Origin: a virus | Length of the DNA stretch: 49,287 nt | Direction: 5' to 3' (one strand) | Virus genome (UHGV): UHGV-0210521 | Part shown: positions 1-45,840 of the stretch, piece by piece | Layout of the letters: every line of letters starts with the position of its first letter | How positions within the stretch are numbered: the first letter of the stretch is position 1 | Notes under the pieces: model-generated | Seen by the model: only the letters and a program-made list of their open reading frames with translations | What the model was told of the DNA's origin: nothing | Databases searched by the model: none | Made by a program: the position numbers and the translations under genes

Positions 1-2460
1 AACGATCCAGACAATCTGGAAGGCAACCTGACTGCCTATGTGCAGGCGTTCTCACCGAACGCGCGTGACGTGATGCAGTCTTACAGTTTCTTCAACGTGA
101 TCGACCGGCTCGACCGATCGGGACTCTTGTTCCAGATTCTTGACGCGTTCACCGCCCCTGATGTTGATCTGTCTCCGAAAGCGGTCTCGAACGCCGACAT
201 GGGCACCATTTTCGAAGAGCTTATCCGCCGTTTCAATGAGCTCTCGAACGAAACCGCTGGCGAACACTTCACACCCCGTGAGGTCATTAACCTCATGGTC
301 AACATCTTGTTTGAACCGGACATGGACGTGATTTGCGAGCCAGGGTTCATGGCCTCGCTGTATGACCCAGGGGCAGGCACAGGTGGCATGTTATCCACCG
401 CGATTGAGCAAGCCCACGACCTGAACGACCGAGCACGCATTGAAGTCTACGGACAAGAGCTCAACCCGCAAACCTATGCGGTGGCGAAATCGGACACTCT
501 CATCAAGGGTGAGGATGCCGACCGAATCTACTTCGGCAACTCCTTAACGGACGATAAGACTGCTGGGCGGACATTCAACTATATGCTGTGCAATCCACCG
601 TTTGGAGTTGAATGGAAGAAGTACGCTGACCCGATCAAGGAAGAAGCTGAGAAGCGGGGCTGGAATGGCCGCTTCGGCGCAGGGCTGCCGAGGATCTCGG
701 ACGGCTCATTCTTGTTCTTGCAGCACATGATCTCCAAAATGAAGCCCTACAATCCGAACGACACTCAGAAATCTCCGGGCACGCGCATCGCGATCGTGTT
801 CAACGGCTCACCCCTGTTCACAGGTGCTGCTGGGTCAGGTGAATCCAACATCCGGCGTTGGATCCTTGAAAACGACTGGCTCGAGGCGATCATCGCCCTG
901 CCTGACCAGATGTTCTATAACACGGGGATACTTACCTACATTTGGGTGCTCTCCAACCGCAAGGAACCCCGACGCAAGAACAAGGTACAGCTCATTGACG
1001 CCACCGGCTTCTTTGATCGGATGCGCAAACCACTGGGCGAAAAACGCAAATACCTCACCGAGGACAACATCGCTGACATTGCACAGATCTATGGCAGTTT
1101 CACTGAAGGTGAGCATTCAAAGATTTTCGACACCACCGAGTTCGGCTTCCGTGAGGTCACAGTAGAACGCCCACTACGGTTGAACTTCCAAGTCAGTCCC
1201 GAGCGCATTGAGCGACTGTGGGAACAAACCACATTCAAGAACCTTGCCAGCTCGAAGAAACGCAGCGAGCCTGCACGCAGCGCCGAAATCCAAGCAGGCA
1301 AGAACGCCCAGATTGCTATCGTCAGTGCGCTCGATAGCCTTGACGGTGAGGTGATGTGGAAGAACCGCGACGAATTCACAAAGGTTCTCAAAGCTGCTTT
1401 CAAAGAGCTTGGTTTGACGGTGCGCGCACCGCTACTCAAAGCGATCCTTGCTGCTCTTGGTGAAACTGATCCGAGTGCGGATATCTGCTACGGCGCGAAA
1501 GGTAACGTAGAGCCAGACCCTGCTCTGCGCGACACCGAGCAAGTCCCACTCGCTGAGGATATCGACGCCTACGTTCAACGTGAAATCATCCCATACGCCG
1601 CCGACGCCTACGTCGACCCGGATAAGACGAAGATTGGCTACGAGATCCCCTTCACGCGCTACTTCTACCAATACGAAGAACTCGGCGACCCCACCGAGAC
1701 CCTCGCCGAAATCCAAACGCTCGGTGCCGACATCCAAGCAGCCATCGCCAAACTATTCAGTGAGCAGTGCAAGCGTGAACTGATCGCCCACACCGTCACC
1801 AAAGGCCTCAACCCCGACGCCCCAATGAAAGACAGCGGTATTGACTGGATTGGGAAGATTCCAAATCACTGGCATTCTCGTTCTCTGAAATCTCTGTTGA
1901 CCCGTAAATCGCGTAAGGGTGAGCCTTCCTGGAGAGTTCTTTCTGTTGAACGTGAGCGTGGGGTTGTAGATCGTGAACTTGAAGGGTCGCCAGATAATAA
2001 CAACCGTCTACCAGATGATTTGAGTGGTTATTTGGTAGTTCGGAACGGCCAATTTGTTATGAACAAAATGAAGGCTTGGCAAGGATCATATGGAGTGTCG
2101 CTGTATGACGGGATTGTCAGTCCTGCGTATTACACCTTCGATTTAGCGTCTTCCGTGGATTCTGAATTCTTCAACTGGGCTATACGGTCAAAAGCATATA
2201 TTCCCTTCTTTGGCAGGGATTCTTACGGAATTCGCACAGATCAATGGGACTTTAAGGTACAGGCGCTCCGAAATATTCCACTATTTGTTCCTCCGGTGGA
2301 AGAGCAAAGGCAAATCGTTGACTACCTTGTTCAACGGCTGAAAGGGATCGATGGTTTGATTACCGATTTGGATCGTCAGGTTGAGTTGTTGAGGCGGTAT
2401 CGCAAGCAGGTTATTAACGATGTGGTGACGGGCAAGATCCGTGTCAGTGAGGAGGCATGA
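1..2460 (+). CDS. hsdM: Type I R-M N6-adenine DNA methyltransferase HsdM (5' end outside window) fused in-frame to a half-size HsdS specificity module (one target-recognition domain plus one conserved region, from about nt 1825)
   Basis: Reading frame is open from nt 1 (no stop before the ATG at 40). MTase motifs YDPGAGTGGML and LCNPPFGVEWKK. C-terminal ~210 aa (IDWIGKIPNHW ... IPLFVPPVEEQRQIVDYL ... VVTGKIRV) resemble HsdS TRD plus conserved region; no stop separates M and S parts. Confidence 0.8.
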   Translation, partial: NDPDNLEGNLTAYVQAFSPNARDVMQSYSFFNVIDRLDRSGLLFQILDAFTAPDVDLSPKAVSNADMGTIFEELIRRFNELSNETAGEHFTPREVINLMVNILFEPDMDVICEPGFMASLYDPGAGTGGMLSTAIEQAHDLNDRARIEVYGQELNPQTYAVAKSDTLIKGEDADRIYFGNSLTDDKTAGRTFNYMLCNPPFGVEWKKYADPIKEEAEKRGWNGRFGAGLPRISDGSFLFLQHMISKMKPYNPNDTQKSPGTRIAIVFNGSPLFTGAAGSGESNIRRWILENDWLEAIIALPDQMFYNTGILTYIWVLSNRKEPRRKNKVQLIDATGFFDRMRKPLGEKRKYLTEDNIADIAQIYGSFTEGEHSKIFDTTEFGFREVTVERPLRLNFQVSPERIERLWEQTTFKNLASSKKRSEPARSAEIQAGKNAQIAIVSALDSLDGEVMWKNRDEFTKVLKAAFKELGLTVRAPLLKAILAALGETDPSADICYGAKGNVEPDPALRDTEQVPLAEDIDAYVQREIIPYAADAYVDPDKTKIGYEIPFTRYFYQYEELGDPTETLAEIQTLGADIQAAIAKLFSEQCKRELIAHTVTKGLNPDAPMKDSGIDWIGKIPNHWHSRSLKSLLTRKSRKGEPSWRVLSVERERGVVDRELEGSPDNNNRLPDDLSGYLVVRNGQFVMNKMKAWQGSYGVSLYDGIVSPAYYTFDLASSVDSEFFNWAIRSKAYIPFFGRDSYGIRTDQWDFKVQALRNIPLFVPPVEEQRQIVDYLVQRLKGIDGLITDLDRQVELLRRYRKQVINDVVTGKIRVSEEA

Positions 2461-5400
2461 TGGATACGTCGGAGCGCAGGTTTGAGTCCGAGATCGAATA
2501 CTGGCTGACTACCCAGGGAGCGGAGTTTGACCGGTTTGAGACGCGTGACTCGCAGGGTTTTGATCGCGAGCTGTGCATGTATCCAGCTGACCTGATCCAG
2601 TTTGTGAAAACTACGCAACCGGATCAGTGGGCCAAACTGGAGCGGGCCTATCACGGTCGAGCCGAGGAACGTTTCGCGAAACGTGTGGCTGATCAGTTGG
2701 ATCAGCGTGGCGTGATTGAGATGCTGCGGCGCGGTGTAGAGGATGTTGGTGCCCGCTTTAAGCTGGTCTATTTCGCTCCGGGTACGGATTTGAATGAAGC
2801 TCTGGCAGAGAAATACTGGCAAAATCAGATGAGCATCATGCGGCAGGTGCATTATTCGACGAAGAATGAGAACTCTGTTGACACGGTACTGCTGGTGAAC
2901 GGCATCCCGTTGGTAACACTCGAGTTGAAAAATCAGCTGACTGGGCAGACATATCGTGATGCGATCCGTCAGTACAAGATGGACCGTTCCCCGTCGGAAA
3001 AGCTCTTCGCCCTGGGTAAACGTGCGGTGGTGCACTTCGCGGTTGATACCGATGAGGCGTGGATGACTACGAAGCCCGCCGGGCTCGACACCGTGTTCTT
3101 GCCGTTTAATCGTGGCGTGAATAATGGTGCTGGGAACCCGCCTGTGGAGGGCAAGTTCAAGACGGCCTACTTGTGGGAGCAGGTGCTTGCGAAAGACTCG
3201 TTGCTCGACATTCTGCACCGGTTCGTGCAGTTCGTGCCGGGCAAAGATGGAAGTGGTCGGCGGGCGCGGCCGAAAGACAAGGTGATCTTCCCGCGTTTCC
3301 ATCAGTTGGATGCGGTACGAGCACTCGTTAAGGATGCGAAAGAGCAGGGTGCTGGGCACAACTATTTAGTGCAGCATTCAGCTGGTTCGGGTAAGTCGAA
3401 CACGATCGCATGGCTGGCTCACCACTTATCGAATTTGCATGATGACCAGCAGCGGGTGGTTTTCGATTCGATCATCGTGATCACCGACCGACGCGTGCTG
3501 GATAAGCAGCTCCAAGACACGGTGTTTTCGATGGATCACACAGCAGGCGTCGTCGTAAAGGTTGATAAGAACGCCCGCCAGCTCACCGATGCTCTCGGGC
3601 GTGGTTCGCGCATCATTATCTCGACCTTGCAGAAGTTCCCGTTCGTTGACGTGTCCAGCATCGCGACGGACGGGAAGCGCTTCGCGGTGATTGTGGATGA
3701 GGCGCACTCGTCTCAGACTGGGCAGGCTTCGGAGCGGCTGAAGCAGGTGTTGGCTGACACCGCAAAAGCGGGTGAAGAGTCTGAAGCTGAGCTATTGGAC
3801 CGTTACGCTCGTGCCGAGGCGCAGGTGGAGGCTGCAGAGCTTGAGATTGACGAGCAGATCGCGGCGGATATGACGACCCATGGGCGTCAGGCGAATCTGT
3901 CGTTCTTCGCGTTCACGGCCACACCTAAGCAGAAAACCTTGGAGATTTTTGGAACCCCGGTTGCTGGTGGCACTCCGCGCCCGTTCCATGTGTATTCGAT
4001 GAAGCAGGCGATCGAGGAGGGTTTCATCCTCGACGTACTAGAGAATTACACCACGTATAGGACTTACTACAAGATCGGCAAGAAAACGGCTGACGATCCC
4101 GAGTATGGGAAGAAGCAAGCGAACAAGGCACTCGGCAAATACTTGGCGTTGCACCCGCATAATCTGCGGCAGAAAGCCGAGATCATTATCGAGCATTTCC
4201 GCTCCAATGTGGTGCACAAGATCGGCGGTAAGGCCAAGGCAATGCTGGTGACCGGTTCCCGGTTGCACGCGGTGCGCTACTTTTTCGCCTTCCAAGACTA
4301 CATTCGGGCCAAGGGTTATACCGATCTCGGCGTTCTCGTGGCGTTCTCCGGCACCGTCGAAGACGATGGACAGGACTACACCGAGGAGCAACTCAACGGC
4401 TTCCCCGAAGCCGAGCTGCCCGATCGGTTCGACACCGGTGAGTACCAGATTCTGCTGGTGGCCGAGAAATACCAGACCGGGTTCGACCAGCCCCTGCTGC
4501 AGACCATGTATGTGGACAAGAAGCTCCACGGGGTCAAGGCCGTGCAGACCCTGTCGCGGATCAACCGAATGTGCCCGGGCAAGTCAGATACGTTCGTGTT
4601 GGACTTCGTCAACAGCGCTGACGACATTCAGGCGGCGTTCCAAGACTATTACGTGTCGACCTCGATCAGCGAGGAAACCGACCCGAACATCGTCTACGAT
4701 CTCTACCACCTGATCGCCTCCTACCAGCTGTGGCGAGATGAAGAGATCGACGGATTCGCGACCGTGTTCTTCAGAGAGCAAAAGCAGCAGACCAACCTCG
4801 ACTTTGGCAGGCTCAACGCCTACCTCGACCCTGCGGTCGACCGCTTTGACGCGCTTGACGATGAGGAAAAGCTCGAGGTGCGCTCGGCGTTCAACAAGTT
4901 CAACCGCAACTACGAGTTCTTGACCCACATCATCCGCTTCGACGACGAGCAGCTGCATAAGTTCGCCGCATACGCGAAGCTGCTGACCCGCAAGCTCCAC
5001 ATCGACGGCGACCCTGCCCCACACCTGGATGATGAGGTCACCTTGCAGTACTACCGGCTCCAGTCGGTCTATGAGGGTTCCATCGACCTACAAGACCGGG
5101 TGGGTGAGTTGAAGAACTCGCCCAAGCTGGGCATGCCCACCGCGGACGAACGTGAACGGCTCTCGAAGATCCTCGACTCCCTCAACGAACGATGGGGCAC
5201 CGAGTTCACCAACATGGACAAAGTCCTCGAACAAGTCGCCGATGACCTTGCACAAGATGATGAAATTCAACTACGTGCTCACAACACGCTGGACTTGTTC
5301 AAGATCATCTATGACGAGAAGATGCCCGACGTGATGCTCTCACGGATGACGCAGAACCAAGAATTCGCCATGAAGTACCTCTCCGACCCTGTGTTCAGAG

Positions 5401-5474
5401 GTGACGTGGATGCGATCTTACTGCCGCTTATCCATGAGCGCCTCAATCGTCGCGACGAGGATACTGCCGTTTAA
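2457..5474 (+). CDS. hsdR: Type I restriction enzyme HsdR (nuclease plus SF2 ATPase/translocase)
   Basis: 1005 aa; Walker A SAGSGKS, DEAH box AVIVDEAHSS, N-terminal nuclease-like VLLVNGIPLVTLELK; start overlaps upstream stop (ATGA); GGAGG upstream. Confidence 0.85.
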   Translation: MMDTSERRFESEIEYWLTTQGAEFDRFETRDSQGFDRELCMYPADLIQFVKTTQPDQWAKLERAYHGRAEERFAKRVADQLDQRGVIEMLRRGVEDVGARFKLVYFAPGTDLNEALAEKYWQNQMSIMRQVHYSTKNENSVDTVLLVNGIPLVTLELKNQLTGQTYRDAIRQYKMDRSPSEKLFALGKRAVVHFAVDTDEAWMTTKPAGLDTVFLPFNRGVNNGAGNPPVEGKFKTAYLWEQVLAKDSLLDILHRFVQFVPGKDGSGRRARPKDKVIFPRFHQLDAVRALVKDAKEQGAGHNYLVQHSAGSGKSNTIAWLAHHLSNLHDDQQRVVFDSIIVITDRRVLDKQLQDTVFSMDHTAGVVVKVDKNARQLTDALGRGSRIIISTLQKFPFVDVSSIATDGKRFAVIVDEAHSSQTGQASERLKQVLADTAKAGEESEAELLDRYARAEAQVEAAELEIDEQIAADMTTHGRQANLSFFAFTATPKQKTLEIFGTPVAGGTPRPFHVYSMKQAIEEGFILDVLENYTTYRTYYKIGKKTADDPEYGKKQANKALGKYLALHPHNLRQKAEIIIEHFRSNVVHKIGGKAKAMLVTGSRLHAVRYFFAFQDYIRAKGYTDLGVLVAFSGTVEDDGQDYTEEQLNGFPEAELPDRFDTGEYQILLVAEKYQTGFDQPLLQTMYVDKKLHGVKAVQTLSRINRMCPGKSDTFVLDFVNSADDIQAAFQDYYVSTSISEETDPNIVYDLYHLIASYQLWRDEEIDGFATVFFREQKQQTNLDFGRLNAYLDPAVDRFDALDDEEKLEVRSAFNKFNRNYEFLTHIIRFDDEQLHKFAAYAKLLTRKLHIDGDPAPHLDDEVTLQYYRLQSVYEGSIDLQDRVGELKNSPKLGMPTADERERLSKILDSLNERWGTEFTNMDKVLEQVADDLAQDDEIQLRAHNTLDLFKIIYDEKMPDVMLSRMTQNQEFAMKYLSDPVFRGDVDAILLPLIHERLNRRDEDTAV

Positions 5475-5518
5475 ACCCACGCGACCACGGGTCGTGCTTG
5501 CGCACCACTCCAAAGCAT

Positions 5519-5536
5519 GTTAGCATAGTTGCTAAC
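5519..5536. promoter_or_regulatory. Perfect palindrome GTTAGCA-TAGT-TGCTAAC, candidate operator for the downstream HTH regulator
   Basis: 7-bp inverted arms with 4-bp spacer, 22 bp upstream of the ATG at 5558 and just upstream of the AGGAGG RBS. Confidence 0.4.
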
Positions 5537-5557
5537 AACGTTAGGAGGTTGTTTCTC

Positions 5558-5932
5558 ATGGCTGAATCAGAAACCTTTGGCACTTTCCTTGAGCAACATA
5601 GGAAAGACCAAGATCTCACCATGCGCAGGTTCGCAGACATGATCGGAGTCACTGCACCCTATTTGAGCGATATTGAAAAAGGGCGCAGGGCCGCCCCTGA
5701 CGCGAAGCTGGAGAATATTGCTGACGTACTTCACCTCAACCGCGAAGAACGGGAAAAGATGTACGACCTTGCCGCCCTCACGAGGGAGAACCAAGTATCG
5801 ACTGACTTGTCGGGCTATATTATGGAAACCGACATGGCGCGAGTTGCCCTTCGCCGAGCCAAGGAGCGAAATCTTAGTCAGCAACAATGGGCAGACATCC
5901 TCGACATCATCGAAGGTGAGGAGGACAAGTAG
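5558..5932 (+). CDS. XRE-family helix-turn-helix transcriptional regulator
   Basis: HTH segment LTMRRFADMIGVTAPYLSDIEKGRRAP; AGGAGG RBS 8 nt upstream of ATG 5558 (track ORF starts at 5498 but the internal ATG has the RBS). Confidence 0.7.
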   Translation: MAESETFGTFLEQHRKDQDLTMRRFADMIGVTAPYLSDIEKGRRAAPDAKLENIADVLHLNREEREKMYDLAALTRENQVSTDLSGYIMETDMARVALRRAKERNLSQQQWADILDIIEGEEDK

Positions 5933-6603
5933 TGAGTCTTGAGCCGAAATACATCAGCAAAGAAAATCTCGACGAACGGGCAGAAAAGCTCCTGTCGAGA
6001 TATCGAGGTGGCACTCTACTCGCCGTAGCGGCACCGCTCGATATCGAACACTTCGCAGAATTCGAGCTCGACGCCAAACTTGACTACCAGCGACTATCGG
6101 CAGATGACTCTGTGCTCGGAATGTCGGTCTTTCAAGATCTGACACTGCCTGTCGCAAGCGCTAGTGGGGCTCGCGCTCATGTTGAAATCCCTGCAAGAAC
6201 CATCGTGATTGACGATCGGGCGCTGGATGACTCACCAGAAGGTCGATTTCGGTTCACCATCGCACATGAGTGCGCGCACCTGATTTTGCACTCACGAATC
6301 TTTTATCGCGACCCTTCGATGTCATGCCCGAACAAGAGTGGTTACCTTCCGTTTACGGCTGAAACCGAAAATGTAGGGAGTGAGAAGTTCAACCGAGGCG
6401 AGTTTCAGGCTAACTATCTTGGCGCGGCCCTGCTTATGCCAAGGATGACCTTTTCACGGGCATTTCATGAGTTTGTGCCACTGCCATGGGCAGAGATGAC
6501 TGACCGTAATAAGCGTCAAGTCGTCTCGCAACTCGCAGACCTGTTCAACGTATCTCCGACCGCCGCCGCTCTTCGCATCAAACATCTCGAACTGGCCTCG
6601 TAA
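5932..6603 (+). CDS. ImmA/IrrE-family zinc metallopeptidase (HExxH)
   Basis: HECAHLILH motif; GTG start overlaps the stop of the HTH gene by 1 nt (translational coupling). Confidence 0.7.
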   Translation: MSLEPKYISKENLDERAEKLLSRYRGGTLLAVAAPLDIEHFAEFELDAKLDYQRLSADDSVLGMSVFQDLTLPVASASGARAHVEIPARTIVIDDRALDDSPEGRFRFTIAHECAHLILHSRIFYRDPSMSCPNKSGYLPFTAETENVGSEKFNRGEFQANYLGAALLMPRMTFSRAFHEFVPLPWAEMTDRNKRQVVSQLADLFNVSPTAAALRIKHLELAS

Positions 6604-6681
6604 GGATGGGAAGGGCGTGAAGCCTATTTTTTTTAACAAAAGTGTTAGCCAATTAGCGAACAAGCAAATGAGTGGAGGTTG

Positions 6682-6837
6682 ATGGAAACAATCAAGAACG
6701 CAGCAGGCAAGACAATCTGCCGAGTCGATCTGCACAACAAACACATAGAAATTGTCAACAAGGGCTATCGATCGTGGATTTGGTTCGACGCCACGGGCAG
6801 ACTTCACGAACGTCACGAGCCACGACAGCCACCCTAA
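6682..6837 (+). CDS. Hypothetical small protein (51 aa)
   Basis: ATG with GGAGG RBS 5 nt upstream; below the 60-aa ORF-track cutoff; lower GC than surroundings; no recognisable domain. Confidence 0.25.
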   Translation: METIKNAAGKTICRVDLHNKHIEIVNKGYRSWIWFDATGRLHERHEPRQPP

Positions 6838-7016
6838 CCAGGCGACATCGCAAGCACACAACTGAATAAAAACAAGAACAAAGTTCGATCCGCAGAACCG
6901 CTAGACGGGCAAGGATCACGCAATTCCTCCACAAGGAGGCGCGTGAACCTGCCCGTCTTTGCTGTCTCTGCGGCTTGGCGGACTCCTGCGGATCTCAATC
7001 CGACAGGAGAAAACCA

Positions 7017-7745
7017 ATGTCCAAGCGCTCCGACGCTCAAGAAACCTTTCGCACAATCACAATCCGCTTCAAGCACGAAGCAGACAACAACAAGAACGAG
7101 TCCACCACCGACACTTTCGACATCGACCCTGGCGAGTTCGCTCTCATGATCGCTACCGACCGCCAGCAACGCGCCGCAGCTACTGGTGTTCCGCTCGACC
7201 AGGTTAAGCCGCGCACCGCACAGAAAATCCTGGACGAGTTGTGGAACGCAGAAGAAGCAGCCACACATAAGGCGGTTCGCGCCGATCGCGGCAAGGGCAA
7301 GAAGAAATGCACGTGCGGAGCCGGGTGCGGTCCTCGACGTGGATGCCGTCTGCCAAACAACAAGCCCTTTTCGTATGAGCAGATGCTCGACATCGACCTT
7401 GACCCTGCTTCGCCAGGTATCAGCGCTGAAGACCAGGCCATCGAACGTGAGAACAGCGTCCAGCGTGCCCGTGAGCTCAAGGTGATGCGTGACGTCATCG
7501 ACGGGTTGGATCCCCAGCATCGCGAGGTGATGACGCGCCTTCTCGCAACCGACAAGCTCAATCAGGCGCAGGTGGCGCGCGACATGGGGTTGACCCGCGC
7601 TCGGGTATCGCAGCTGGTGGCAGAGGTGAAACCGATGATCCGACAGGCGGTCGAGGATGCCCGATTTAACACTTTCGGCGGTGTCGGCAGTGGGGTGAAG
7701 GGAGAAGCCAACCGGGCTACTCCCACCAACATGGAAGAAAGGTAA
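7017..7745 (+). CDS. Putative phage regulator with C-terminal sigma-70 region-4-like HTH
   Basis: C-terminal LDPQHREVMTRLLATDKLNQAQVARDMGLTRARVSQLV; ATG 7017 preceded by AGGAGA; Lys/Cys-rich segment KGKKKCTCGAGCGPRRGC. Confidence 0.5.
   Translation: MSKRSDAQETFRTITIRFKHEADNNKNESTTDTFDIDPGEFALMIATDRQQRAAATGVPLDQVKPRTAQKILDELWNAEEAATHKAVRADRGKGKKKCTCGAGCGPRRGCRLPNNKPFSYEQMLDIDLDPASPGISAEDQAIERENSVQRARELKVMRDVIDGLDPQHREVMTRLLATDKLNQAQVARDMGLTRARVSQLVAEVKPMIRQAVEDARFNTFGGVGSGVKGEANRATPTNMEER
7663..7704. repeat. Conserved 42-bp element copy A (GATTTAACA-N17-GTCGGCAGTGGGGTGAAGGGAG)
   Basis: Near-identical copies at 13465-13502 and 43902-43943; lies 46 nt upstream of the gene starting at 7751. Confidence 0.6.
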
Positions 7746-7750
7746 GCCCG

Positions 7751-7987
7751 ATGACCCGACATAGTCTCAAGCTTCATATCGCCCGGCACATCCCTGACGA
7801 CCCCGGAATCGTCGCCACCAAGAATGTGACGCTTCGTGAACGGCTCATACGCCTACTGCTTGGCACCCCGCGCAAAGTCATGATCCTTGTCCCTGGTGAC
7901 TCGGTCAAGCAGATCGACATCACCGAAAACACCGATGACGACCTCATGGCCCTGGCCGATGCTCTCAAGGCGGGTGAATCCAAATGA
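7751..7987 (+). CDS. Hypothetical phage protein
   Basis: 78-aa ORF in the co-directional early gene array; no recognisable domain. Confidence 0.45.
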   Translation: MTRHSLKLHIARHIPDDPGIVATKNVTLRERLIRLLLGTPRKVMILVPGDSVKQIDITENTDDDLMALADALKAGESK

Positions 7988-8397
7988 TGATGCCGGAAAT
8001 TAACGCCTTCATTCGTGATGGAAACCAGGCGCTGCGATCGCTTGCTGATTTGCTTTTGCGAGCTCAGCAGATCGTTGAGGAGAGCTTCGAAGACCACGCA
8101 GGAATGCCTGGTGAACGCCCAGAGCTTGCCCTGCAGATCAAGGAACCCTTCGAAACCATCCCAGCCACGCACGCCCAGCCAGAACTACTCGCGGACGAAC
8201 CAGAGATTGAACCTGAACCGGTAGTGACGCTCGAAGAAGTACGTGCTTTTCTTTCCGAACTCTCAGCGCAAGGCCACACCGCAAAGGTTCGTGAGCTGAT
8301 CGTCGAGGCTGGTGCCGACAAGCTCTCAGCGGTGAATCCAGCAAAGTTCGGCTGGCTTCTGGAACGGGCGAAGGAGGTCGCTGATGGCACCGTCTGA
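7984..8397 (+). CDS. Hypothetical phage protein
   Basis: 137-aa ORF; start overlaps the upstream stop (ATGA); no recognisable domain. Confidence 0.45.
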   Translation: MMMPEINAFIRDGNQALRSLADLLLRAQQIVEESFEDHAGMPGERPELALQIKEPFETIPATHAQPELLADEPEIEPEPVVTLEEVRAFLSELSAQGHTAKVRELIVEAGADKLSAVNPAKFGWLLERAKEVADGTV

Positions 8398-9523
8398 TCA
8401 CGCACTCCTCTCAGCATCCGGTGCGCACAGGTGGCTCAACTGCACGCCCTCAGCACGCCTCGAATCCGATGAGCCAGAATCATCCTCGTCTGCTGCCGAG
8501 CAAGGTACCGCCGCCCACGCCCTCGCCGAGTGGAAGCTCCGGCGCGCCTTCCACCAGGCACCGACCTTCAAGCCGGTCTCGGCCTGGATTGATGACGAGA
8601 TGGAAACCTTGACTGACGACTACGTCGCCTACGTCCAAGAACACATCTCGTTGGCAGAGCAAACCTGTGGTGATCCGCAGGTGCTGATCGAGCAGCGCCT
8701 AGACTTCTCCCACATTGTGCCCGGAGGTTTTGGCACCGGGGATTGCGTGATCATCGCCGAACCCACCTTGCAGATCATTGATCTCAAGTACGGGCAAGGC
8801 GTCCTCGTCGAGGCCGCGAACAATCCGCAGTTGATGTTGTATGCGCTCGGAGCGCTTCACACCTTCGGGAGCCTGTACGACATCGAGACGGTGGCGGTCA
8901 CGATCTATCAGCCGCGCCGGGCGAACGTCGACACCTGGGAAATCTCCGTTGCCGAACTTCAGCACTGGGCTGAAACCGAGGTCAAGCCGAAAGCCGAGCT
9001 CGCCTCGGCTGGCGGGGGCGAGTTTTGTCCTGGCTCGTGGTGTCAGTTTTGCAAGATTGCACCCACGTGCCGGGCACGAGCGGAAGCCAATCTTGCGCTC
9101 GCCAGGTTGGAGTTCGCCCCACCAGCAGAACTAACGGACGCAGAGATCGCTGACGTGCTGGCCCGTATACCGCAGCTCAAAACATGGGCGGCGAATGTGG
9201 AAGCTTACGCCCTGTCGAAAGCCGTCAACCAGGGCGTGGTCTTTGAGGGGTTCAAAGTCGTCGCCGGACGGTCGGTACGCAAATACACCTCCGAAACCGA
9301 CGTGGCTGCGGCGGCTGAGGCGGCTGGCTACAAAGACATCTATGACCGCAAGCTCATCACCCTCACAGCCATGGAACGCCTCATGGGCAAATCCACTTTC
9401 AACGAGATCCTCGGCGACCTCGTGACCAAACCTGCAGGCAAACCCACCCTGGTTCCTGCATCCGACAAACGGCCAGCACTTGACCTGGTGAGTGCGGCCA
9501 CCGATTTTCAAACAAACAAGTAA
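8384..9523 (+). CDS. PD-(D/E)xK nuclease, DUF2800-like (Cas4/RecB-like fold with C-terminal Cys cluster)
   Basis: N-terminal LSASGAHRWLNC, GDCVII ... IIDLKYGQG, C-terminal CPGSWCQFCKIAPTC; usual first gene of this phage replication module. Confidence 0.65.
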   Translation: MAPSDHALLSASGAHRWLNCTPSARLESDEPESSSSAAEQGTAAHALAEWKLRRAFHQAPTFKPVSAWIDDEMETLTDDYVAYVQEHISLAEQTCGDPQVLIEQRLDFSHIVPGGFGTGDCVIIAEPTLQIIDLKYGQGVLVEAANNPQLMLYALGALHTFGSLYDIETVAVTIYQPRRANVDTWEISVAELQHWAETEVKPKAELASAGGGEFCPGSWCQFCKIAPTCRARAEANLALARLEFAPPAELTDAEIADVLARIPQLKTWAANVEAYALSKAVNQGVVFEGFKVVAGRSVRKYTSETDVAAAAEAAGYKDIYDRKLITLTAMERLMGKSTFNEILGDLVTKPAGKPTLVPASDKRPALDLVSAATDFQTNK

Positions 9524-10177: not shown

Positions 10178-12145
10178 ATGCGAACACTCTTCTGCGATAT
10201 CGAGACTTTCAGTCCTGTTCAGCTCGCCAAGACAGGCGTCTACCCGTATGCCGAGCACCCCGACTTCGACCTGCTCCTCTTCGGATATTCGATTGACGGC
10301 GGCCCGGTCGAGGTCGTGGATCTTGCAGGCGGCCAGCAGATCCCCGACAATGTGCTATCAGCTCTGGTGGATCCGGGTGTGGTCAAGTGGGCGCATAACG
10401 CCGCCTTCGAACGAGTCTGCTTGTCCGCCTGGCTACGCACGCATCATCCCGAACTGCTGGATGGCGGGTTTCTTGACCCAAGGCAGTGGCGGTGCACCAT
10501 GATCTGGTCCGCCTACCTCGGACTACCGATGAGCCTCGACGCAGTAGCCACAGTTTTGAAACTTGACGTTCAAAAAGACAGCGCCGGACGCAAGCTGATC
10601 AAGCAGTTCTGCACACCCGCCACACCCTCAGTCTTGAATGGCGGCAAACACAGGAATCCACCATCAGCGGATCCCGCCGGCTGGGCACATTTCATTGACT
10701 ACAACCGGCGCGACGTCGAAGTCGAACAAGCCATCCACGACAGACTGGCGTTTTTTCCGATGCCAGACTCCGAATGGGACACCTATGCCCTTGACCAACG
10801 CATTAATGATGCCGGGATTCTTCTCGACTACACGCTCGTCGATAATGCCGTTACCGTGGATGAGCACCACCGCAACGCGTCGCTTGCACGGGCACAGAAG
10901 CTCACAGGGTTGGACAATCCCAACTCGCCAATCCAACTCAAACAATGGCTCCACAACCACGGCTGCGAACTCGAATCACTAGCGAAAGCCGACGTCGATG
11001 CCGCCCTCGACACCGCGACCGGCGCGGTGAAAGAAGTCCTCGGACTCCGTGGTGATCTGGCGAAATCTTCGGTGAAGAAATACCAGGCGATGCACAACGT
11101 CGCAGGCAGTGACGGCCGGGCACGCGGGCTGATCCAGTTCTACGGAGCAGGACGCACTGGGCGCTTCGCAGGACGCCTCGTCCAAGTCCAAAACCTGCCA
11201 AGGAATTACCTGACAGATCTCGACCAAGCACGCACGCTCGTCAGAACAGGCAACCTTGATGCGCTTGAGCTGCTCTACGAGTCCGTGCCCGACACCCTCA
11301 GCCAACTCATCCGCACCGCATTCATCCCCAGCACCGGCCACAGGTTTATCGTTGCGGACTTTTCCGCAATCGAAGCGCGCGTTATCGCATGGCTCGCAGG
11401 AGAAACAACCACCCTGGCCGCCTTCCGCGACGGTAAAGACCTCTACTGCGAAACCGCATCGCGCATGTTCGGCGTCCCGGTCGAAAAGCACGGCATTAAT
11501 GGCGAGCTACGTCAAAAGGGGAAGATCGCGGTGCTCGCCTGTGGCTATGGCGGCTCAGTTGGTGCTCTCAAAGCCATGGGAGCCCTCACCATGGGACTCG
11601 CCGAGCATGAGCTCAAACCGATCGTGGACGCATGGCGGCAAGCCAACCCACACATCGTTGGGCTCTGGGCCGACGTCGAAGAAGCCGCGATCGCCGCGAT
11701 CACCTCGCGCCAGCCGATCCGCTTGCGTAACCTGCGATTCTCCGTTGAGTCCGGGATTCTCTTCATCGAACTGCCCTCAGGCAGGAGATTAGCGTATGTG
11801 CAGCCGCGTCTGGGTGAGAATCGTTGGGGTGGCACGTCCATCACCTACACCGGCACCACCGCAGCCAGACGTTGGGGACAGCTCGAAACCTACGGCGGGA
11901 AACTTGTCGAGAATATCGTCCAAGCAATCGCCCGTGATCTGCTCGTCACTGGCATGCACGCAGTCGCCAAGGCGGGGCATCGGATTGTGATGCATGTTCA
12001 TGATGAAATTGTCATCGACGAACCCGAAAATTCCGGCTTCACCGTGACTGATGCATGTGCTCTTATGTCGACGCTCCCAGCCTGGGCCGAAGGTTTGCCG
12101 TTGGATGCGGATGGGTATGAGTGCGCCTATTACCGTAAGGATTAG
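10178..12145 (+). CDS. Family A DNA polymerase (phage Pol I-like with 3'-5' exonuclease domain)
   Basis: 655 aa; exo motif FCDIETFS, pol motifs DFSAIEARVIAWLAGE, RQKGKIAVLACGYGGS, HVHDEIVID. Confidence 0.85.
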   Translation: MRTLFCDIETFSPVQLAKTGVYPYAEHPDFDLLLFGYSIDGGPVEVVDLAGGQQIPDNVLSALVDPGVVKWAHNAAFERVCLSAWLRTHHPELLDGGFLDPRQWRCTMIWSAYLGLPMSLDAVATVLKLDVQKDSAGRKLIKQFCTPATPSVLNGGKHRNPPSADPAGWAHFIDYNRRDVEVEQAIHDRLAFFPMPDSEWDTYALDQRINDAGILLDYTLVDNAVTVDEHHRNASLARAQKLTGLDNPNSPIQLKQWLHNHGCELESLAKADVDAALDTATGAVKEVLGLRGDLAKSSVKKYQAMHNVAGSDGRARGLIQFYGAGRTGRFAGRLVQVQNLPRNYLTDLDQARTLVRTGNLDALELLYESVPDTLSQLIRTAFIPSTGHRFIVADFSAIEARVIAWLAGETTTLAAFRDGKDLYCETASRMFGVPVEKHGINGELRQKGKIAVLACGYGGSVGALKAMGALTMGLAEHELKPIVDAWRQANPHIVGLWADVEEAAIAAITSRQPIRLRNLRFSVESGILFIELPSGRRLAYVQPRLGENRWGGTSITYTGTTAARRWGQLETYGGKLVENIVQAIARDLLVTGMHAVAKAGHRIVMHVHDEIVIDEPENSGFTVTDACALMSTLPAWAEGLPLDADGYECAYYRKD

Positions 12146-13086
12146 CTGTTGATTGTCCAGATGGGATCTTGTTTCCAGCTGGGGCTGGCACCTATGTGCG
12201 TTAGATCGACGCCAGGAATTTCGGTGGGGAAACTGTCTAGGACGTCGCTGATGGCCTGTATTTCAGCGGTGAAATTTCCTCGTCGCAAGAGGAATGCGGT
12301 GAGTACCAGCGCGGTGTACATACGTCCTGAAGAATGTGTCACGGCCGATAGCGTTTGGTCGTTGCGGCGGTGTTTGACCAGTGGACGGATAACGAGTTGC
12401 CTATTCCATAGTCTGGCGTGGTGAGCGCATATGTTACGAATGTAATTCGCAGTGCGCATCCACGATTCCAACTCGTCGGCACGTGCCAAGTACTTGTCAG
12501 CAATGCGACGACGCTGTTCGAAGGGAGCCAACGAAAACAGGGTCACGAGTTGTCCGAACTCAAGAATCTCGGTAACCACCCACACCGGCAAACGACCGTC
12601 GTGGGTCTGGTTGTAATGCTTGACGAAATCTTCTGTAGAGCGCGACTGTGTTTGGGTGAGCTTCTGCGTAAAGAATGCTGCTCTGTGATTCATCGCCCCC
12701 GATGGCCAAATCCGTTCGAGGTCGAGGTGAATGAACGGATCGATCTCACCCAGCACGTGCCCCACGTCAACTCGCAGGCACACCTCCAGCTTGCATAGCG
12801 CCTGCCACACAGCCAAGCGTAGCCGCTCATCAAACTCGTACAGCTCTACCACATGCCCCATACGTGCACCGAGAACGAAATGGTCCAAACGCCGTTGCGG
12901 CGAATCAGATGGAGCGATCTGACGCAACGGGTAGGAGTATCCCGAAAGCCGGTAATAGCCGACAGTAGATAACTCGCGGCGGTAATCACCGGCATCCAAT
13001 AGGCCACGACGAGTGAGAATATTAATCTGCTCATCGATACTGGCCCACGGTTTATCGACCACCAGCCCACCTGCTTCCAAAAACAT
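12142..13086 (-). CDS. Abi_2 family abortive-infection protein (AbiD/AbiF-like)
   Basis: 314 aa on the opposite strand; N-terminal ... INILTRRGLL ... VGYYRLSGYSYP signature; convergent with the polymerase gene. Confidence 0.7.
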   Translation of the reverse strand: MFLEAGGLVVDKPWASIDEQINILTRRGLLDAGDYRRELSTVGYYRLSGYSYPLRQIAPSDSPQRRLDHFVLGARMGHVVELYEFDERLRLAVWQALCKLEVCLRVDVGHVLGEIDPFIHLDLERIWPSGAMNHRAAFFTQKLTQTQSRSTEDFVKHYNQTHDGRLPVWVVTEILEFGQLVTLFSLAPFEQRRRIADKYLARADELESWMRTANYIRNICAHHARLWNRQLVIRPLVKHRRNDQTLSAVTHSSGRMYTALVLTAFLLRRGNFTAEIQAISDVLDSFPTEIPGVDLTHIGASPSWKQDPIWTINS

Positions 13087-44543: not shown

Positions 44544-44589
44544 ACACTTGGTTTAGAGCGTGTATAGACCTAACGCGAAAGGAGAAAAC

Positions 44590-45840
44590 GTGGCACACAT
44601 CAGTGTGGTGACACCAGTTCGGTCGCCTGCCCCGAAACTGGTCAACGTGGCGGCATACGCGAGGGTCTCAACCAACGGCACAGAGCAGTTAGCATCCCTA
44701 TCGGCGCAGGTTTCGTATTACTCGCGCCTGATCCAATCCACACCCGGATGGGCCTACGTCGGCGTGTTCACCGACGAGGGTATCACCGGCACGTCAACAA
44801 AATCCCGACAAGGCCTGGCCGATCTGATGGACGCAGCCAGGAGTGGGGGTGTCGATATTGTGTTGTGTAAATCAATCTCACGCCTAGCCCGCAACACAAT
44901 CGACCTGCTCGCTACGGTCCGTGAGCTGAAAGACCTTGGCGTGGCCGTACGGTTCGAACGCGAACGCATCGACACCCTTAGCGCTGACGGGGAACTGCTG
45001 TTAACCTTGCTGGCCTCATTCGCCCAAGAAGAATCACGCTCACTATCCCACAACGTCAAATGGGCGATCCGGAACCGATACAAGAGCGGGGGCACAAACT
45101 CCTTCGTTGTCTATGGATACAAATGGGCAGACGGCCAGTTCACCATCATCGAAGAAGAAGCCAAGATCGTGCGCTTACTGTTTGCGAATTTCTTGGACGG
45201 GATTAGCCCGGAGAAAACCGCGACGATGCTCAATGCTGAAGGTAAACGCTCTCGGGGAGGGGGACGGTTCTACGGGTCAGTGTTTCGTCGCATGCTCGAA
45301 AATGAGCGCTACAAGGGCTGCCAAATGCTACAGAAAATGTACCGCCCCACAATCCAAGCACCCACACGCTCCCTCAACGACGGGGAGCTGCCGCGATACT
45401 GGGTCGACAATGCACTACCAGCCATCATTGACGAAACAACCTTTGACGCCGTTCAGAAAGAAATCGCGCACAGGCGTGAGGTGGGCCCGGCTGCCACCCC
45501 GTCAAAAAACACGGGCGTATTCACCGGACGGATCTGCTGCGGCGCGTGCGGGAAGAACTATCAACGCAAAACCCGCACCTACAAGTCTGGAACCTCATAC
45601 AAGTTCTGGCGCTGCTGGAGTGCCTGCACCGGAAACGGAAACCCCTGTAGGGGGCACAACCTGCGCGAAACACTCCTCGAACACGCCTGCGCAGACATGC
45701 TCGGCACCCAGGGTTTCGACCCTGTCCAGGTTGGCGAGCAGGTCGTGATGATCGAGGCCTTCGAGCATCAGCTCACCTTCCACCTCGCAGATGGAACCAT
45801 GATGCCGGTGGGCTTAACCAGTGAGGGGTGGTTGGCATGA
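44590..45840 (+). CDS. Large serine recombinase (resolvase-type catalytic domain, recombinase domain, zinc ribbon)
   Basis: AAYARVSTNGTEQL catalytic region, ... SRLARN ..., Cys-rich CCGACG ... C-terminus; AAAGGAG RBS before GTG 44590. Confidence 0.85.
   Translation: MAHISVVTPVRSPAPKLVNVAAYARVSTNGTEQLASLSAQVSYYSRLIQSTPGWAYVGVFTDEGITGTSTKSRQGLADLMDAARSGGVDIVLCKSISRLARNTIDLLATVRELKDLGVAVRFERERIDTLSADGELLLTLLASFAQEESRSLSHNVKWAIRNRYKSGGTNSFVVYGYKWADGQFTIIEEEAKIVRLLFANFLDGISPEKTATMLNAEGKRSRGGGRFYGSVFRRMLENERYKGCQMLQKMYRPTIQAPTRSLNDGELPRYWVDNALPAIIDETTFDAVQKEIAHRREVGPAATPSKNTGVFTGRICCGACGKNYQRKTRTYKSGTSYKFWRCWSACTGNGNPCRGHNLRETLLEHACADMLGTQGFDPVQVGEQVVMIEAFEHQLTFHLADGTMMPVGLTSEGWLA

What the first reader, a model, noticed from the sequence alone, without database searches (positions are those of the whole stretch)
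6682..6837. Unannotated 51-aa ORF with good RBS in an AT-rich spacer at the left prophage edge
The ORF METIKNAAGKTICRVDLHNKHIEIVNKGYRSWIWFDATGRLHERHEPRQPP is below the 60-aa track cutoff and overlaps a longer, out-of-frame track ORF (6672-6869) that looks like low-complexity noise. It sits in a compositionally atypical segment between the ImmA gene and the first clear phage regulator.
Basis: seen in the sequence. Interest (0 to 1): 0.25.

Follow-up and report, generated by a model that had tools for sequence, protein, structure and literature searches.

The report
Phage miniprotein gene plus leader RNA
The 51-codon ORF is a real, strongly conserved gene for a tiny all-beta protein that always travels with a previously undescribed structured leader RNA in front of a sigma-factor-like regulator, at the start of the early genes of phages, satellites and conjugative elements in two bacterial phyla.

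Summary
The ORF (6682-6837, +) is there exactly as described, with GGAGG 3 nt before the ATG. It is a genuine gene. About 40 homologues of 47-90 aa exist. Residues N6, K10 and D16 are invariant across the 37-sequence alignment. dN/dS is 0.05-0.29, only this frame stays open in relatives, and the AlphaFold2 model is a five-strand beta meander (pLDDT 93). No Pfam, PHROG, NCBIfam, PDB or fold match was found.

Directly downstream (6885-7019) is a ~130-nt structured RNA with a nucleotide-invariant core (AUCCGCAGAACCGC-N-AGACGGGC). It has a terminator-like hairpin and a helix that sequesters the Shine-Dalgarno of the next gene, a sigma-70 region-4-type regulator (7017-7745). It matches no Rfam family.

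Protein and RNA co-occur: 30/30 protein-retrieved viral loci carry the RNA, and 72/75 RNA-retrieved loci carry the ORF. This holds in Actinomycetota and Bacillota prophages, a satellite-like element and an ICE. Both are missing from 88-92% identical sigma-like relatives.

Best reading (inferred, not shown): the miniprotein is the trans-acting partner of the leader and gates expression of the sigma-like regulator.

The "left prophage edge" claim is wrong. The R-M, XRE and ImmA genes belong to the element, as in the circular relative phiCATYP2070I.

The parts
5498..6603 (+). Immunity module upstream: XRE-type HTH repressor (5498-5932; gene callers start it later, giving 124 aa) and ImmA/IrrE M78 metallopeptidase (5932-6603)
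   Evidence: Pfam HTH_31/HTH_3 at E 3e-12 and Peptidase_M78 at E 8e-13. The same pair is found upstream in relatives.
6644..6661 (.). 18-bp operator-like palindrome GTTAGC-N6-GCGAAC, following a T8 run after the ImmA stop and about 12 nt before the SD of the small gene
   Evidence: A palindrome of the form GTTCRC-N6-GYGAAC sits at the same position in L024, L025, L026, L047 and L163. Its function as repressor operator or promoter is inferred.
6674..6678 (+). Shine-Dalgarno GGAGG of the small gene
   Evidence: Read from the sequence. An SD is present before nearly all homologues listed. One haplotype has GGAAG instead.
6682..6837 (+). Gene for the 51-aa basic all-beta miniprotein (the finding)
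   Evidence: Homologues. dN/dS 0.05-0.29. Other frames closed in relatives. AF2 pLDDT 93.4 with five strands. Family median pI 9.6.
6885..7019 (+). Conserved structured leader RNA, whole element as matched by covariance model R1
   Evidence: R1 scores 111.8 bits on + and 31.7 bits on -. MFE -82 kcal/mol, z -7.4. Covariation analysis. No Rfam match.
6887..6902 (+). Segment 1 (GAUCCGCAGAA) plus the invariant unpaired junction AACCGCU
   Evidence: Invariant columns across 16 diverse sequences. Segment 1 pairs either with segment 2 (84% of cells) or with segment 3 (92% of cells, with the terminal pair covarying AU 36 / GC 15).
6903..6965 (+). P2 terminator-like hairpin (AGACGGGCA ... UGCCCGUCU) with a variable, compensating upper stem, followed by a U-rich tail
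   Evidence: Perfect 9-bp inverted repeat. The upper stem covaries: AU 30 / GC 23 at one pair. 44 of 50 family members have at least 5 U in the 8 nt after the stem.
6966..6973 (+). Segment 2 (CUCUGCGG), the imperfect complement of segment 1
6983..7009 (+). Segment 3 (CUCCUGCGGAUC) paired with segment 4 (AUCCGACAGGAG). This hairpin sequesters the SD (AGGAG, 7005-7009) of the sigma-like gene
   Evidence: MFE structures of the window and of the family members shown have the SD bases paired. The helix covaries: CG 28 / UG 20 / UA 12. The alternative fold with the SD free costs 5.8 kcal/mol more in the window and a median of about 10 across the family.
7017..7745 (+). Sigma-70 region-4-type regulator gene (242 aa), the gene controlled by the leader
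   Evidence: Pfam Sigma70_r4 at E 1e-06, 28.6 bits against a cut-off of 24.1. PHROG sigma-factor families match. All 10 diverse downstream proteins of the family hit Sigma70_r4 or r4_2. Annotated as 'sigma factor-like HTH DNA-binding protein' in phiCATYP2070I.

Best explanation
ORF 6682-6837 is the first gene of the early transcription unit of a temperate Corynebacterium-type siphophage related to phiCATYP2070I. It lies just downstream of the XRE-ImmA immunity module and an operator-like palindrome. It encodes a basic, five-stranded all-beta miniprotein of an uncharacterised family.

The gene is one part of an obligatory three-part cassette: miniprotein gene, a ~130-nt structured leader RNA, and a sigma-70 region-4-type regulator gene. 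By default the leader folds into an OFF state. A long hairpin followed by a U-rich tract looks like a terminator, and a second hairpin buries the regulator's Shine-Dalgarno. An alternative pairing of segment 1 with segment 3 would free that SD, but it is 6-12 kcal/mol less stable.

The most likely mechanism is that the miniprotein, made from the same transcript just upstream, binds the invariant part of the leader (AUCCGCAGAACCGC-N-AGACGGGC). This would shift the leader to the ON state, by read-through, SD exposure or both. The sigma-like regulator, and with it the early genes, would then be expressed only once the miniprotein has accumulated.

Shown here: the gene is real and under purifying selection, the RNA structure is conserved with covariation, the two co-occur, and the SD is sequestered in predicted folds. 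Inferred: that protein and RNA interact, and that the effect is activation.
For: Gene reality:
- A full HMMER scan finds about 14 small homologues, and a profile search finds 38.
- N6, K10 and D16 are invariant, and K5, G9, C13, E23, I24, K27, G28 and F35 are at least 90% conserved.
- In loci retrieved independently of the ORF, synonymous sites are saturated while pN is 0.1-0.2, giving dN/dS of 0.05-0.29.
- Alternative frames are closed in relatives.
- AF2 pLDDT is 93.4.
- The miniprotein is 65-70% identical where the neighbouring sigma-like protein is only 41-52% identical.

RNA:
- z-scores are -5.9 to -7.9 in seven element classes with GC from 39% to 58%.
- On 62 sequences, 85.9% of cells are paired against 32-46% with slid partners. 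14 pairs change on both sides, and 0/500 shuffles reach the observed score.
- G-U pairs are abundant, and the model scores 112 bits on + against 32 bits on -.
- Distant members L086 and L166 carry compensatory changes even in the otherwise invariant stems.

Linkage:
- All 30 viral loci found through the protein have the RNA directly downstream.
- 72 of 75 genuine RNA instances have the ORF within 400 nt upstream, and one exception is an IS insertion.
- Both parts are absent from 88-92% identical sigma-like genes in Mobiluncus, Arcanobacterium, Varibaculum and others.
- The junction AACCGC is invariant although its opposite strand is not, which points to recognition by a trans factor.
- The family is basic, with median pI 9.6 and net charge +4.

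Default OFF state.

Against: Co-occurrence of adjacent elements can reflect shared inheritance of a cassette rather than physical interaction. The sigma-like gene is also always present.

The invariant RNA core could instead be read by RNA polymerase, the ribosome or the sigma-like protein. Known antiterminator RNAs such as put, EAR and canT act without a dedicated protein.

Neither alternative pairing of segment 1 disrupts the terminator-like hairpin, so how termination would be relieved is unexplained. The alignment used for covariation was fitted to the structure.
Confidence: 0.45

Rival explanations
1. The miniprotein works at the protein level, as a partner, anti-factor or co-factor of the sigma-like regulator or of RNA polymerase. 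An example would be a processivity factor like ConAn1. The leader RNA then acts on its own or responds to something else.
For: The sigma-like gene is the third invariant member of the cassette. In the conAn system the RNA alone antiterminates and the protein only adds processivity (PMC8191782). The gene array downstream is long and co-directional, with a modest excess of terminator-like hairpins: 30 found against 18.5 +/- 5.1 expected, and 26 against 18.7 +/- 3.7.
Against: Sigma-like proteins 88-92% identical to the window's exist without the miniprotein in many genera, so the regulator does not need it. The miniprotein and the RNA are gained and lost together, with the breakpoint inside the first ~12 codons of the sigma-like gene. 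There is no sequence similarity to ConAn1/PF17362 or to the N-termini of the sigma-like proteins.
Confidence: 0.2
2. It is a Cro/antirepressor-type switch protein. It would bind DNA at the operator-like palindrome, or bind the XRE repressor, to set the lysis-lysogeny decision. On this reading its adjacency to the leader RNA is only synteny.
For: It occupies the classical position of the first early gene next to the repressor module and just downstream of a conserved palindrome. It is small and basic. Small beta-sheet DNA binders exist; the Tn916 Int N-domain and Sso7d appeared among weak Foldseek hits.
Against: The protein is conserved across phyla, but the palindrome was looked for and found only in actinobacterial members. 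In the ICE and in several Bacillota elements the upstream neighbours are defence genes on the other strand, not an XRE-ImmA pair. No helix or HTH is predicted. The only neighbours common to all contexts are the RNA and the sigma-like gene.
Confidence: 0.15
3. It is a leader peptide: the act of translating the ORF controls folding of the downstream attenuator, and the product itself does not matter.
For: A short ORF lies immediately upstream of alternative RNA pairings and a terminator-like hairpin. In some Bacillota members the stop codon is only 13-16 nt before segment 1. The window peptide ends in Pro-Pro-stop, a known poor termination context (own knowledge).
Against: There is strong purifying selection on the whole amino-acid sequence, with residues invariant across two phyla, and a confidently predicted fold. 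The distance from stop codon to RNA ranges from 13 to 50 nt, and to about 150 nt in L062 and L072. The C-terminal tail is not conserved within the actinobacterial group.
Confidence: 0.07
4. It is a chance ORF and not a gene.
For: Short ORFs are abundant in this GC-rich sequence. The SD-to-ATG spacing is only 3 nt.
Against: All of the conservation evidence above.
Confidence: 0.01

Closest known systems
conAn bipartite processive antitermination system of Gram-positive conjugative plasmids (ConAn1 protein plus conAn2 RNA; pLS20, pCF10, pAD1; PMC8191782)
   Same: A small protein gene at the very start of a long co-directional operon of a mobile element is followed immediately by a structured cis RNA. 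That RNA carries a short GC-rich tract just 5' of an essential stem-loop, flanked by an inverted repeat. Both systems occur in Gram-positive mobile elements.
   Different: ConAn1 belongs to Pfam PF17362 (pXO2-34), and its functional N-terminal domain spans about 100 aa of a 172-aa protein. The miniprotein here is 50 aa with no similarity. conAn2 is 260-600 nt and poorly conserved, whereas this RNA is about 130 nt with a nucleotide-invariant core. Here the RNA also sequesters the SD of a sigma-like regulator. Antitermination activity has not been tested.
Phage Mu Com-mom translational activation (own knowledge)
   Same: A tiny protein encoded directly upstream on the same transcript binds a hairpin and exposes the sequestered ribosome-binding site of the next gene. 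This is the same logic as the proposed ON switch.
   Different: Com is a four-cysteine zinc finger, whereas this family has one conserved Cys and is all-beta. There is no sequence or fold relation. The target here is a regulator, not a DNA-modification gene, and a terminator-like hairpin is also present.
HutP/hut and LicT-SacY (CAT domain)/RAT antitermination (own knowledge)
   Same: In the hut operon the regulator gene comes first, then a terminator, then the controlled genes. In the LicT-SacY case a ~55-aa beta-sheet RNA-binding module recognises a conserved RNA element next to a terminator.
   Different: No Pfam hit to HutP or CAT_RBD was found for any of 37 members, and there was no fold match. 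No alternative antiterminator hairpin competing with the terminator stem is evident here.
Tn916 canT cis-acting antiterminator RNA (PMC11658703)
   Same: An element-encoded structured RNA is needed to express the genes of an integrative mobile element in Gram-positives.
   Different: canT is 341-452 nt, needs no element protein and lies elsewhere in its element. No sequence relation was examined or found.

Membership tests
conAn (ConAn1 + conAn2) | Protein belongs to Pfam PF17362 (pXO2-34) | tested here: not met
   No PF17362 hit for the window protein or for any of the 37 family members at E up to 10.
conAn (ConAn1 + conAn2) | Protein gene is directly followed by a structured RNA at the start of a long operon of a mobile element | tested here: met
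   ORF 6682-6837 is followed by the RNA at 6885-7019, then a >35-kb, almost entirely + strand gene array.
conAn (ConAn1 + conAn2) | The RNA confers read-through of downstream terminators and the protein makes it processive | not testable with these tools
   This needs reporter assays. There is only a weak excess of terminator-like hairpins downstream.
Mu Com-type translational activator | Cys4 zinc-finger protein | tested here: not met
   Only one conserved Cys (C13). The model is all-beta.
Mu Com-type translational activator | The target gene's SD is buried in a hairpin next to the activator's site | tested here: met
   The SD at 7005-7009 is paired with 6983-6988 in the MFE, and the same holds in the family members shown.
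LicT/SacY CAT domain, CsrA, HutP (known small RNA-binding regulators) | Sequence or fold membership | tested here: not met
Any Rfam 15 RNA family | Covariance-model match | tested here: not met
   No match at E up to 1 in window 6400-7200, and none at the element in L043, L050, L047 or L024.
Cro/CI-type HTH switch proteins | Helix-turn-helix fold | tested here: not met
   The AF2 model has five strands and no helix. There is no HTH Pfam hit.
Leader peptide of a translation-coupled attenuator | Peptide sequence is free to vary, and the stop codon sits at a fixed, ribosome-sized distance from the alternative hairpins | tested here: not met
   dN/dS is 0.05-0.29 with invariant residues. The distance from stop to RNA ranges from 13 to about 150 nt.
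Sigma-70 family (downstream gene 7017-7745) | Region 4 (-35 binding HTH) | tested here: met
   Sigma70_r4 scores 28.6 bits against a cut-off of 24.1. All 10 diverse orthologous-position proteins hit r4 or r4_2.
Sigma-70 family (downstream gene 7017-7745) | Region 2 (core binding, -10 recognition) | tested here: not met
   No Sigma70_r2 hit in the window protein or in the 10 others. It is therefore called 'sigma-like' and is not filed as a sigma factor.

The most novel reading that the evidence does not exclude
The miniprotein and the leader RNA form a new two-component (protein plus cis-RNA) switch, unrelated in sequence to conAn, Com, HutP or CAT/RAT. The switch gates a sigma-like master regulator and thereby the early programme of phages, satellite-like elements and ICEs in both Actinomycetota and Bacillota. 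It may combine relief of termination with unmasking of the ribosome-binding site.
Probability: 0.4. Interest if true: 0.75.

Novelty: new variant of a known kind. Interest (0 to 1): 0.6.

Why it matters
If the model holds, this is a compact, portable regulatory cassette: a 50-aa protein plus 130 nt of RNA that decides when mobile elements of two large Gram-positive phyla switch on their early genes. Affected hosts include human-associated Corynebacterium, Trueperella and Mobiluncus relatives, and gut Oscillospirales phages.

It adds an undescribed structured RNA motif with about 60 distinct sequences, covariation and a nucleotide-invariant core. It also adds an undescribed miniprotein family, absent from every curated library searched here. 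Gene callers and curated records sometimes skip it: it is not in the table held for phiCATYP2070I.

The hypothesis is directly testable with simple reporter and binding assays. It offers a new case for how small proteins and leader RNAs cooperate. Even if the protein-RNA interaction is wrong, the RNA motif and the gene family stand as annotation improvements.

Tried and rejected
- The word-indexed protein search with the single peptide found only the identical sequence. The exhaustive HMMER scan was needed.
- Large repeat proteins (RCC1-like and eukaryotic repeats, P0002, P0003, P0007, P0009-11) scored well in that scan. They are multi-copy chance matches and were discarded.
- The first contig set (L001-L009) was retrieved by exact protein identity, so its purely synonymous differences are circular evidence and were not used.
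- DNA search of the INPHARED phage collection with 5400-8400 found nothing.
- Similarity between the miniprotein and the N-termini of the sigma-like proteins was tested and not found.
- Reading the repeated ATCCGCAG/CTGCGGAT boxes as DNA operators was rejected. The helices have variable length and compensating centres, use G-U pairs, and score strongly on one strand only.
- Several motif hits in the collections were chance matches inside coding regions, such as rluB-like genes, and were removed.
- No sigma-70-type promoter could be assigned upstream of the ORF.
- Literature searches for the peptide motif and for a described equivalent found nothing.

Full report
**Observation**

The ORF is present exactly as described. 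ATG 6682 to TAA 6835-6837 on the + strand translates to METIKNAAGKTICRVDLHNKHIEIVNKGYRSWIWFDATGRLHERHEPRQPP. GGAGG sits at 6674-6678, only 3 nt before the ATG. Relatives share this arrangement as GGAGGTGTGATG.

The longer out-of-frame ORF 6672-6869 and an antisense ORF 6454-6861 also exist. Their frames are broken by stops in relatives, whereas the 51-aa frame is open in every relative examined.

The region is only mildly AT-rich. The two non-coding spacers are 42-43% GC. The ORF is 50.6% GC with GC3 of 57.7%, like the neighbouring XRE and ImmA genes. The window as a whole is 56.9% GC. A 51-codon ORF alone is not beyond chance here, so the case rests on comparison with other sequences.

**Context**

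The window is a prophage. Its contents, left to right, are:
- a type I R-M system (40-5474);
- an XRE repressor (5498-5932) and an ImmA/IrrE peptidase (5932-6603);
- the small ORF;
- a sigma-70 region-4-type protein (7017-7745);
- a replication module (DUF2800/PD-(D/E)XK, Enc34-type SSB, PolA);
- terminase, tape measure, holin and amidase;
- two large serine recombinases (44560-47414);
- a host-like ABC transporter (47500-49287).

The first 23.4 kb, R-M genes included, aligns at 84% identity to the circular 48,068-bp Corynebacterium atypicum phage-plasmid phiCATYP2070I (the element is named in PMC4153484). The same synteny recurs on all 9 places shown, which represent the 23 contigs read that carry the identical protein. 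The ORF is therefore not at a prophage edge. It lies between the immunity module and the early genes.

Upstream of the ORF are a T8 run after the ImmA stop and an 18-bp palindrome (GTTAGC-N6-GCGAAC, 6644-6661). The palindrome is positionally conserved in other actinobacterial members. I could not assign a promoter.

**Is it a gene?**

The identical protein is already in NCBI as a hypothetical protein of Caudoviricetes MAGs (DAR51588.1, DAE49432.1). The homologous ORF is not in the gene table held for phiCATYP2070I.

An exhaustive HMMER scan of 1.8 billion representatives found about 14 small homologues of 49-90 aa at 44-67% identity. It also returned spurious multi-repeat hits, which I discarded. 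A profile search found 38 proteins, all unnamed or 'hypothetical', from Trueperella, Arcanobacterium, Boudabousia, Canibacter and many metagenomes.

The 37-sequence alignment has N6, K10 and D16 invariant. K5, G9, C13, E23, I24, K27, G28 and F35 are at least 90% conserved.

In loci retrieved through the neighbouring gene or through the RNA motif, and so not selected on the ORF, synonymous sites are saturated (pS 0.5-1.0). Non-synonymous divergence is 0.1-0.2, giving dN/dS of 0.05-0.29 where it can be computed. The miniprotein is 65-70% identical in three elements whose adjacent sigma-like protein is only 41-52% identical.

AlphaFold2 on the family alignment gives a confident five-strand antiparallel beta meander (mean pLDDT 93.4). 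The family is basic, with median pI 9.6.

None of the following gives a meaningful match:
- Pfam (all 37 members scanned), PHROGs and NCBIfam;
- PDB sequences;
- Foldseek against PDB (best E 0.79);
- BFVD.

**The unexpected part: a conserved RNA**

The 180 nt between the ORF and the sigma-like gene fold far better than shuffled sequence (-82 kcal/mol, z -7.4). The same is true downstream of the homologous ORF in seven element classes with GC from 39% to 58% (z -5.9 to -7.9).

These elements share a nucleotide-invariant core, AUCCGCAGAACCGC-N-AGACGGGC. The anatomy in the window is:
- segment 1, GAUCCGCAGAA (6887-6897);
- the invariant junction AACCGCU;
- hairpin P2 (6903-6958), with a conserved base and a variable, compensating top, followed by a U-rich tract;
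- segment 2, CUCUGCGG (6966-6973), an imperfect complement of segment 1;
- segment 3, CUCCUGCGGAUC (6983-6994);
- segment 4, AUCCGACAGGAG (6998-7009), which contains the SD of the sigma-like gene, whose ATG is at 7017.

In the minimum-energy fold, segment 1 pairs with segment 2 and segment 3 pairs with segment 4. The SD is therefore buried. This holds for the window and for the family members whose folds were shown.

Segment 1 can instead pair with segment 3, which frees the SD. That fold is 5.8 kcal/mol less stable in the window and a median of about 10 across the family. 44 of 50 members have at least 5 U within 8 nt after P2, so P2 looks like an intrinsic terminator.

No Rfam 15 family matches the element, in the window or in four other loci.

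**Covariation**

I built a covariance model (R1) and aligned 62 distinct instances to it. The results are:
- 85.9% of cells form standard pairs, against 32-46% when partners are slid by 1-3 columns.
- 14 pairs show changes on both sides, against 3-7 when slid.
- 0 of 500 shuffles reach the observed covariation score.
- The segment 1-segment 3 helix is 91.6% paired, and its terminal pair covaries (AU 36, GC 15).
- RNAalifold on an independent MAFFT alignment chose this same long-range helix.
- G-U pairs are frequent, and the model scores 111.8 bits on the + strand against 31.7 bits on the - strand in the window. This argues for an RNA structure rather than a DNA operator.
- Distant members (L086 Oscillospirales phage, L166) carry compensating changes even in the otherwise invariant stems and in segments 1, 2 and 3 together.

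One caveat applies: the 62-sequence alignment was fitted to the model structure.

**Linkage of ORF, RNA and regulator**

Scanning for the RNA core found 32 viral and 76 metagenomic loci. After removing chance hits inside coding regions, 72 of 75 genuine instances with enough upstream sequence have the miniprotein ORF within 400 nt upstream on the same strand. One of the three exceptions is an IS110-type insertion.

Conversely, all 30 viral loci retrieved through the protein have a + strand R1 match directly downstream. So do the loci retrieved by exact protein look-up and by tblastn.

The next gene always ends in a sigma-70 region-4-type HTH. Ten of ten diverse representatives hit Sigma70_r4 or r4_2, some below the curated cut-off, and no region 2 was detected.

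The cassette occurs in several kinds of element:
- actinobacterial prophages;
- an Oscillospirales 'Heliusvirales' phage;
- a satellite-like element with primase and small terminase;
- an ICE with MobL relaxase and a TraG-type coupling protein.

In contrast, sigma-like genes 88-92% identical to the window's occur in Mobiluncus, Arcanobacterium, Winkia, Varibaculum, Gleimia, Trueperella bernardiae and others. These match only from residue 13 onward. They have neither the ORF nor the RNA, and their upstream region is different. ORF and RNA are thus exchanged as one unit, and the regulator can exist without them.

**Mechanism**

Shown: a real miniprotein gene, a conserved structured leader with a default SD-sequestered fold and a terminator-like hairpin, and obligatory co-occurrence.

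Inferred: the miniprotein is the trans-acting partner of the leader and switches it ON. I put this at about 0.45. The arguments for it are:
- the joint gain and loss of ORF and RNA;
- an invariant single-stranded junction whose opposite strand is free to vary;
- the basic charge of the protein;
- the need for roughly 6-12 kcal/mol to stabilise the SD-free fold.

The arguments against it are:
- there is no RNA-binding fold match;
- RNA polymerase, the ribosome or the sigma-like protein could read the invariant core instead;
- neither alternative pairing disrupts P2.

The rivals are:
- a protein-level partner of the regulator or of RNAP, as ConAn1 is (0.2);
- a Cro/antirepressor-type DNA or repressor binder (0.15);
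- a leader peptide whose translation alone matters (0.07);
- a chance ORF (0.01).

**Comparison with known systems**

The closest layout is conAn of Gram-positive conjugative plasmids. There, a small protein gene is followed by a cis RNA with a GC-rich tract and an essential stem-loop, at the start of a long operon (PMC8191782). However, ConAn1 is Pfam PF17362, and its RNA is 260-600 nt and poorly conserved. Membership fails on sequence, and antitermination activity is untested.

Mu Com-mom, HutP and LicT/SacY-RAT resemble the proposed logic but not the molecules. Tn916 canT is a protein-independent RNA located elsewhere in its element (PMC11658703).

I therefore file this as a new variant of a known kind: a protein-plus-leader-RNA regulatory cassette built from a protein family and an RNA motif that match nothing in the libraries searched here.

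**Verdict**

The locus is more interesting than the original score of 0.25 suggested, because of the conserved RNA and the cross-phylum cassette. I set interest at 0.6.

Noticed in passing
L099, L114, L115, L116, L123, L124, L148, L161 (leader region downstream of the miniprotein gene): In a Bacillota sub-family the first SD hairpin is followed by an extra short ORF sharing a C/P-R-S-P-P motif (for example MYIYPRSRPPPPPF and MSTYPRCRSPPTPF). A second SD-sequestering hairpin then precedes the sigma-like gene. This may be a proline-stalling leader peptide adding another control layer.
   Followed up: partly
window 40-5474; L047, L050, L163, L164, L168 upstream of the cassette: Defence genes sit immediately upstream of the cassette in many elements: type I R-M (window, phiCATYP2070I, L168), LlaJI-type restriction plus AAA_5 (L163), Hachiman HamA plus helicase (L050), AAA_23 + MC2 + CTD6 (L164), and methylase/Eco57I (L047). 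This position looks like a defence-cargo hotspot.
   Followed up: no
window 6644-6661: An 18-bp palindrome, GTTAGC-N6-GCGAAC, lies between the ImmA stop and the miniprotein SD. A palindrome sits at the same position in L024, L025, L026, L047 and L163. It is probably the operator of the XRE repressor.
   Followed up: partly
window 7017-7745 (residues ~98-113 of the product): The sigma-like protein carries a C-x-C-x4-C-x5-C motif (KKCTCGAGCGPRRGC), kept in the actinobacterial relatives L024 and L025. A differently spaced Cys cluster is present in L080. This may be a metal or redox site. No sigma region 2 was detected.
   Followed up: no
L012-L023, L027-L037 versus window 7017-7052: The sigma-like genes of many Actinomycetales genera are 88-92% identical to the window's from residue 13 onward but have unrelated upstream modules. 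This places a recombination breakpoint inside the first ~12 codons of the gene and shows wide cross-genus spread of the element backbone.
   Followed up: partly
window 44560-47414 and 47500-49287: Two tandem large serine recombinases lie at the right end of the prophage. They are followed by an ABC transporter gene that ends exactly at the last base of the window and is probably host DNA.
   Followed up: no
window 12142-13086 (- strand): An Abi_2 (abortive infection) gene lies on the opposite strand, embedded after the PolA gene in the replication module. It is also present in the related contigs L001-L003.
   Followed up: no
L001, L004, L009 versus L002, L003, L005 (window 40-2460 and 5932-6603 equivalents): There are two haplotypes of the element. 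The window has a single 806-aa methylase ORF and L002 a 910-aa one, where L001 has separate HsdM (682 aa) and HsdS (421 aa). In some contigs the ImmA gene is called only as a 94-aa fragment. The R-M specificity unit and the ImmA gene may therefore vary or decay.
   Followed up: no
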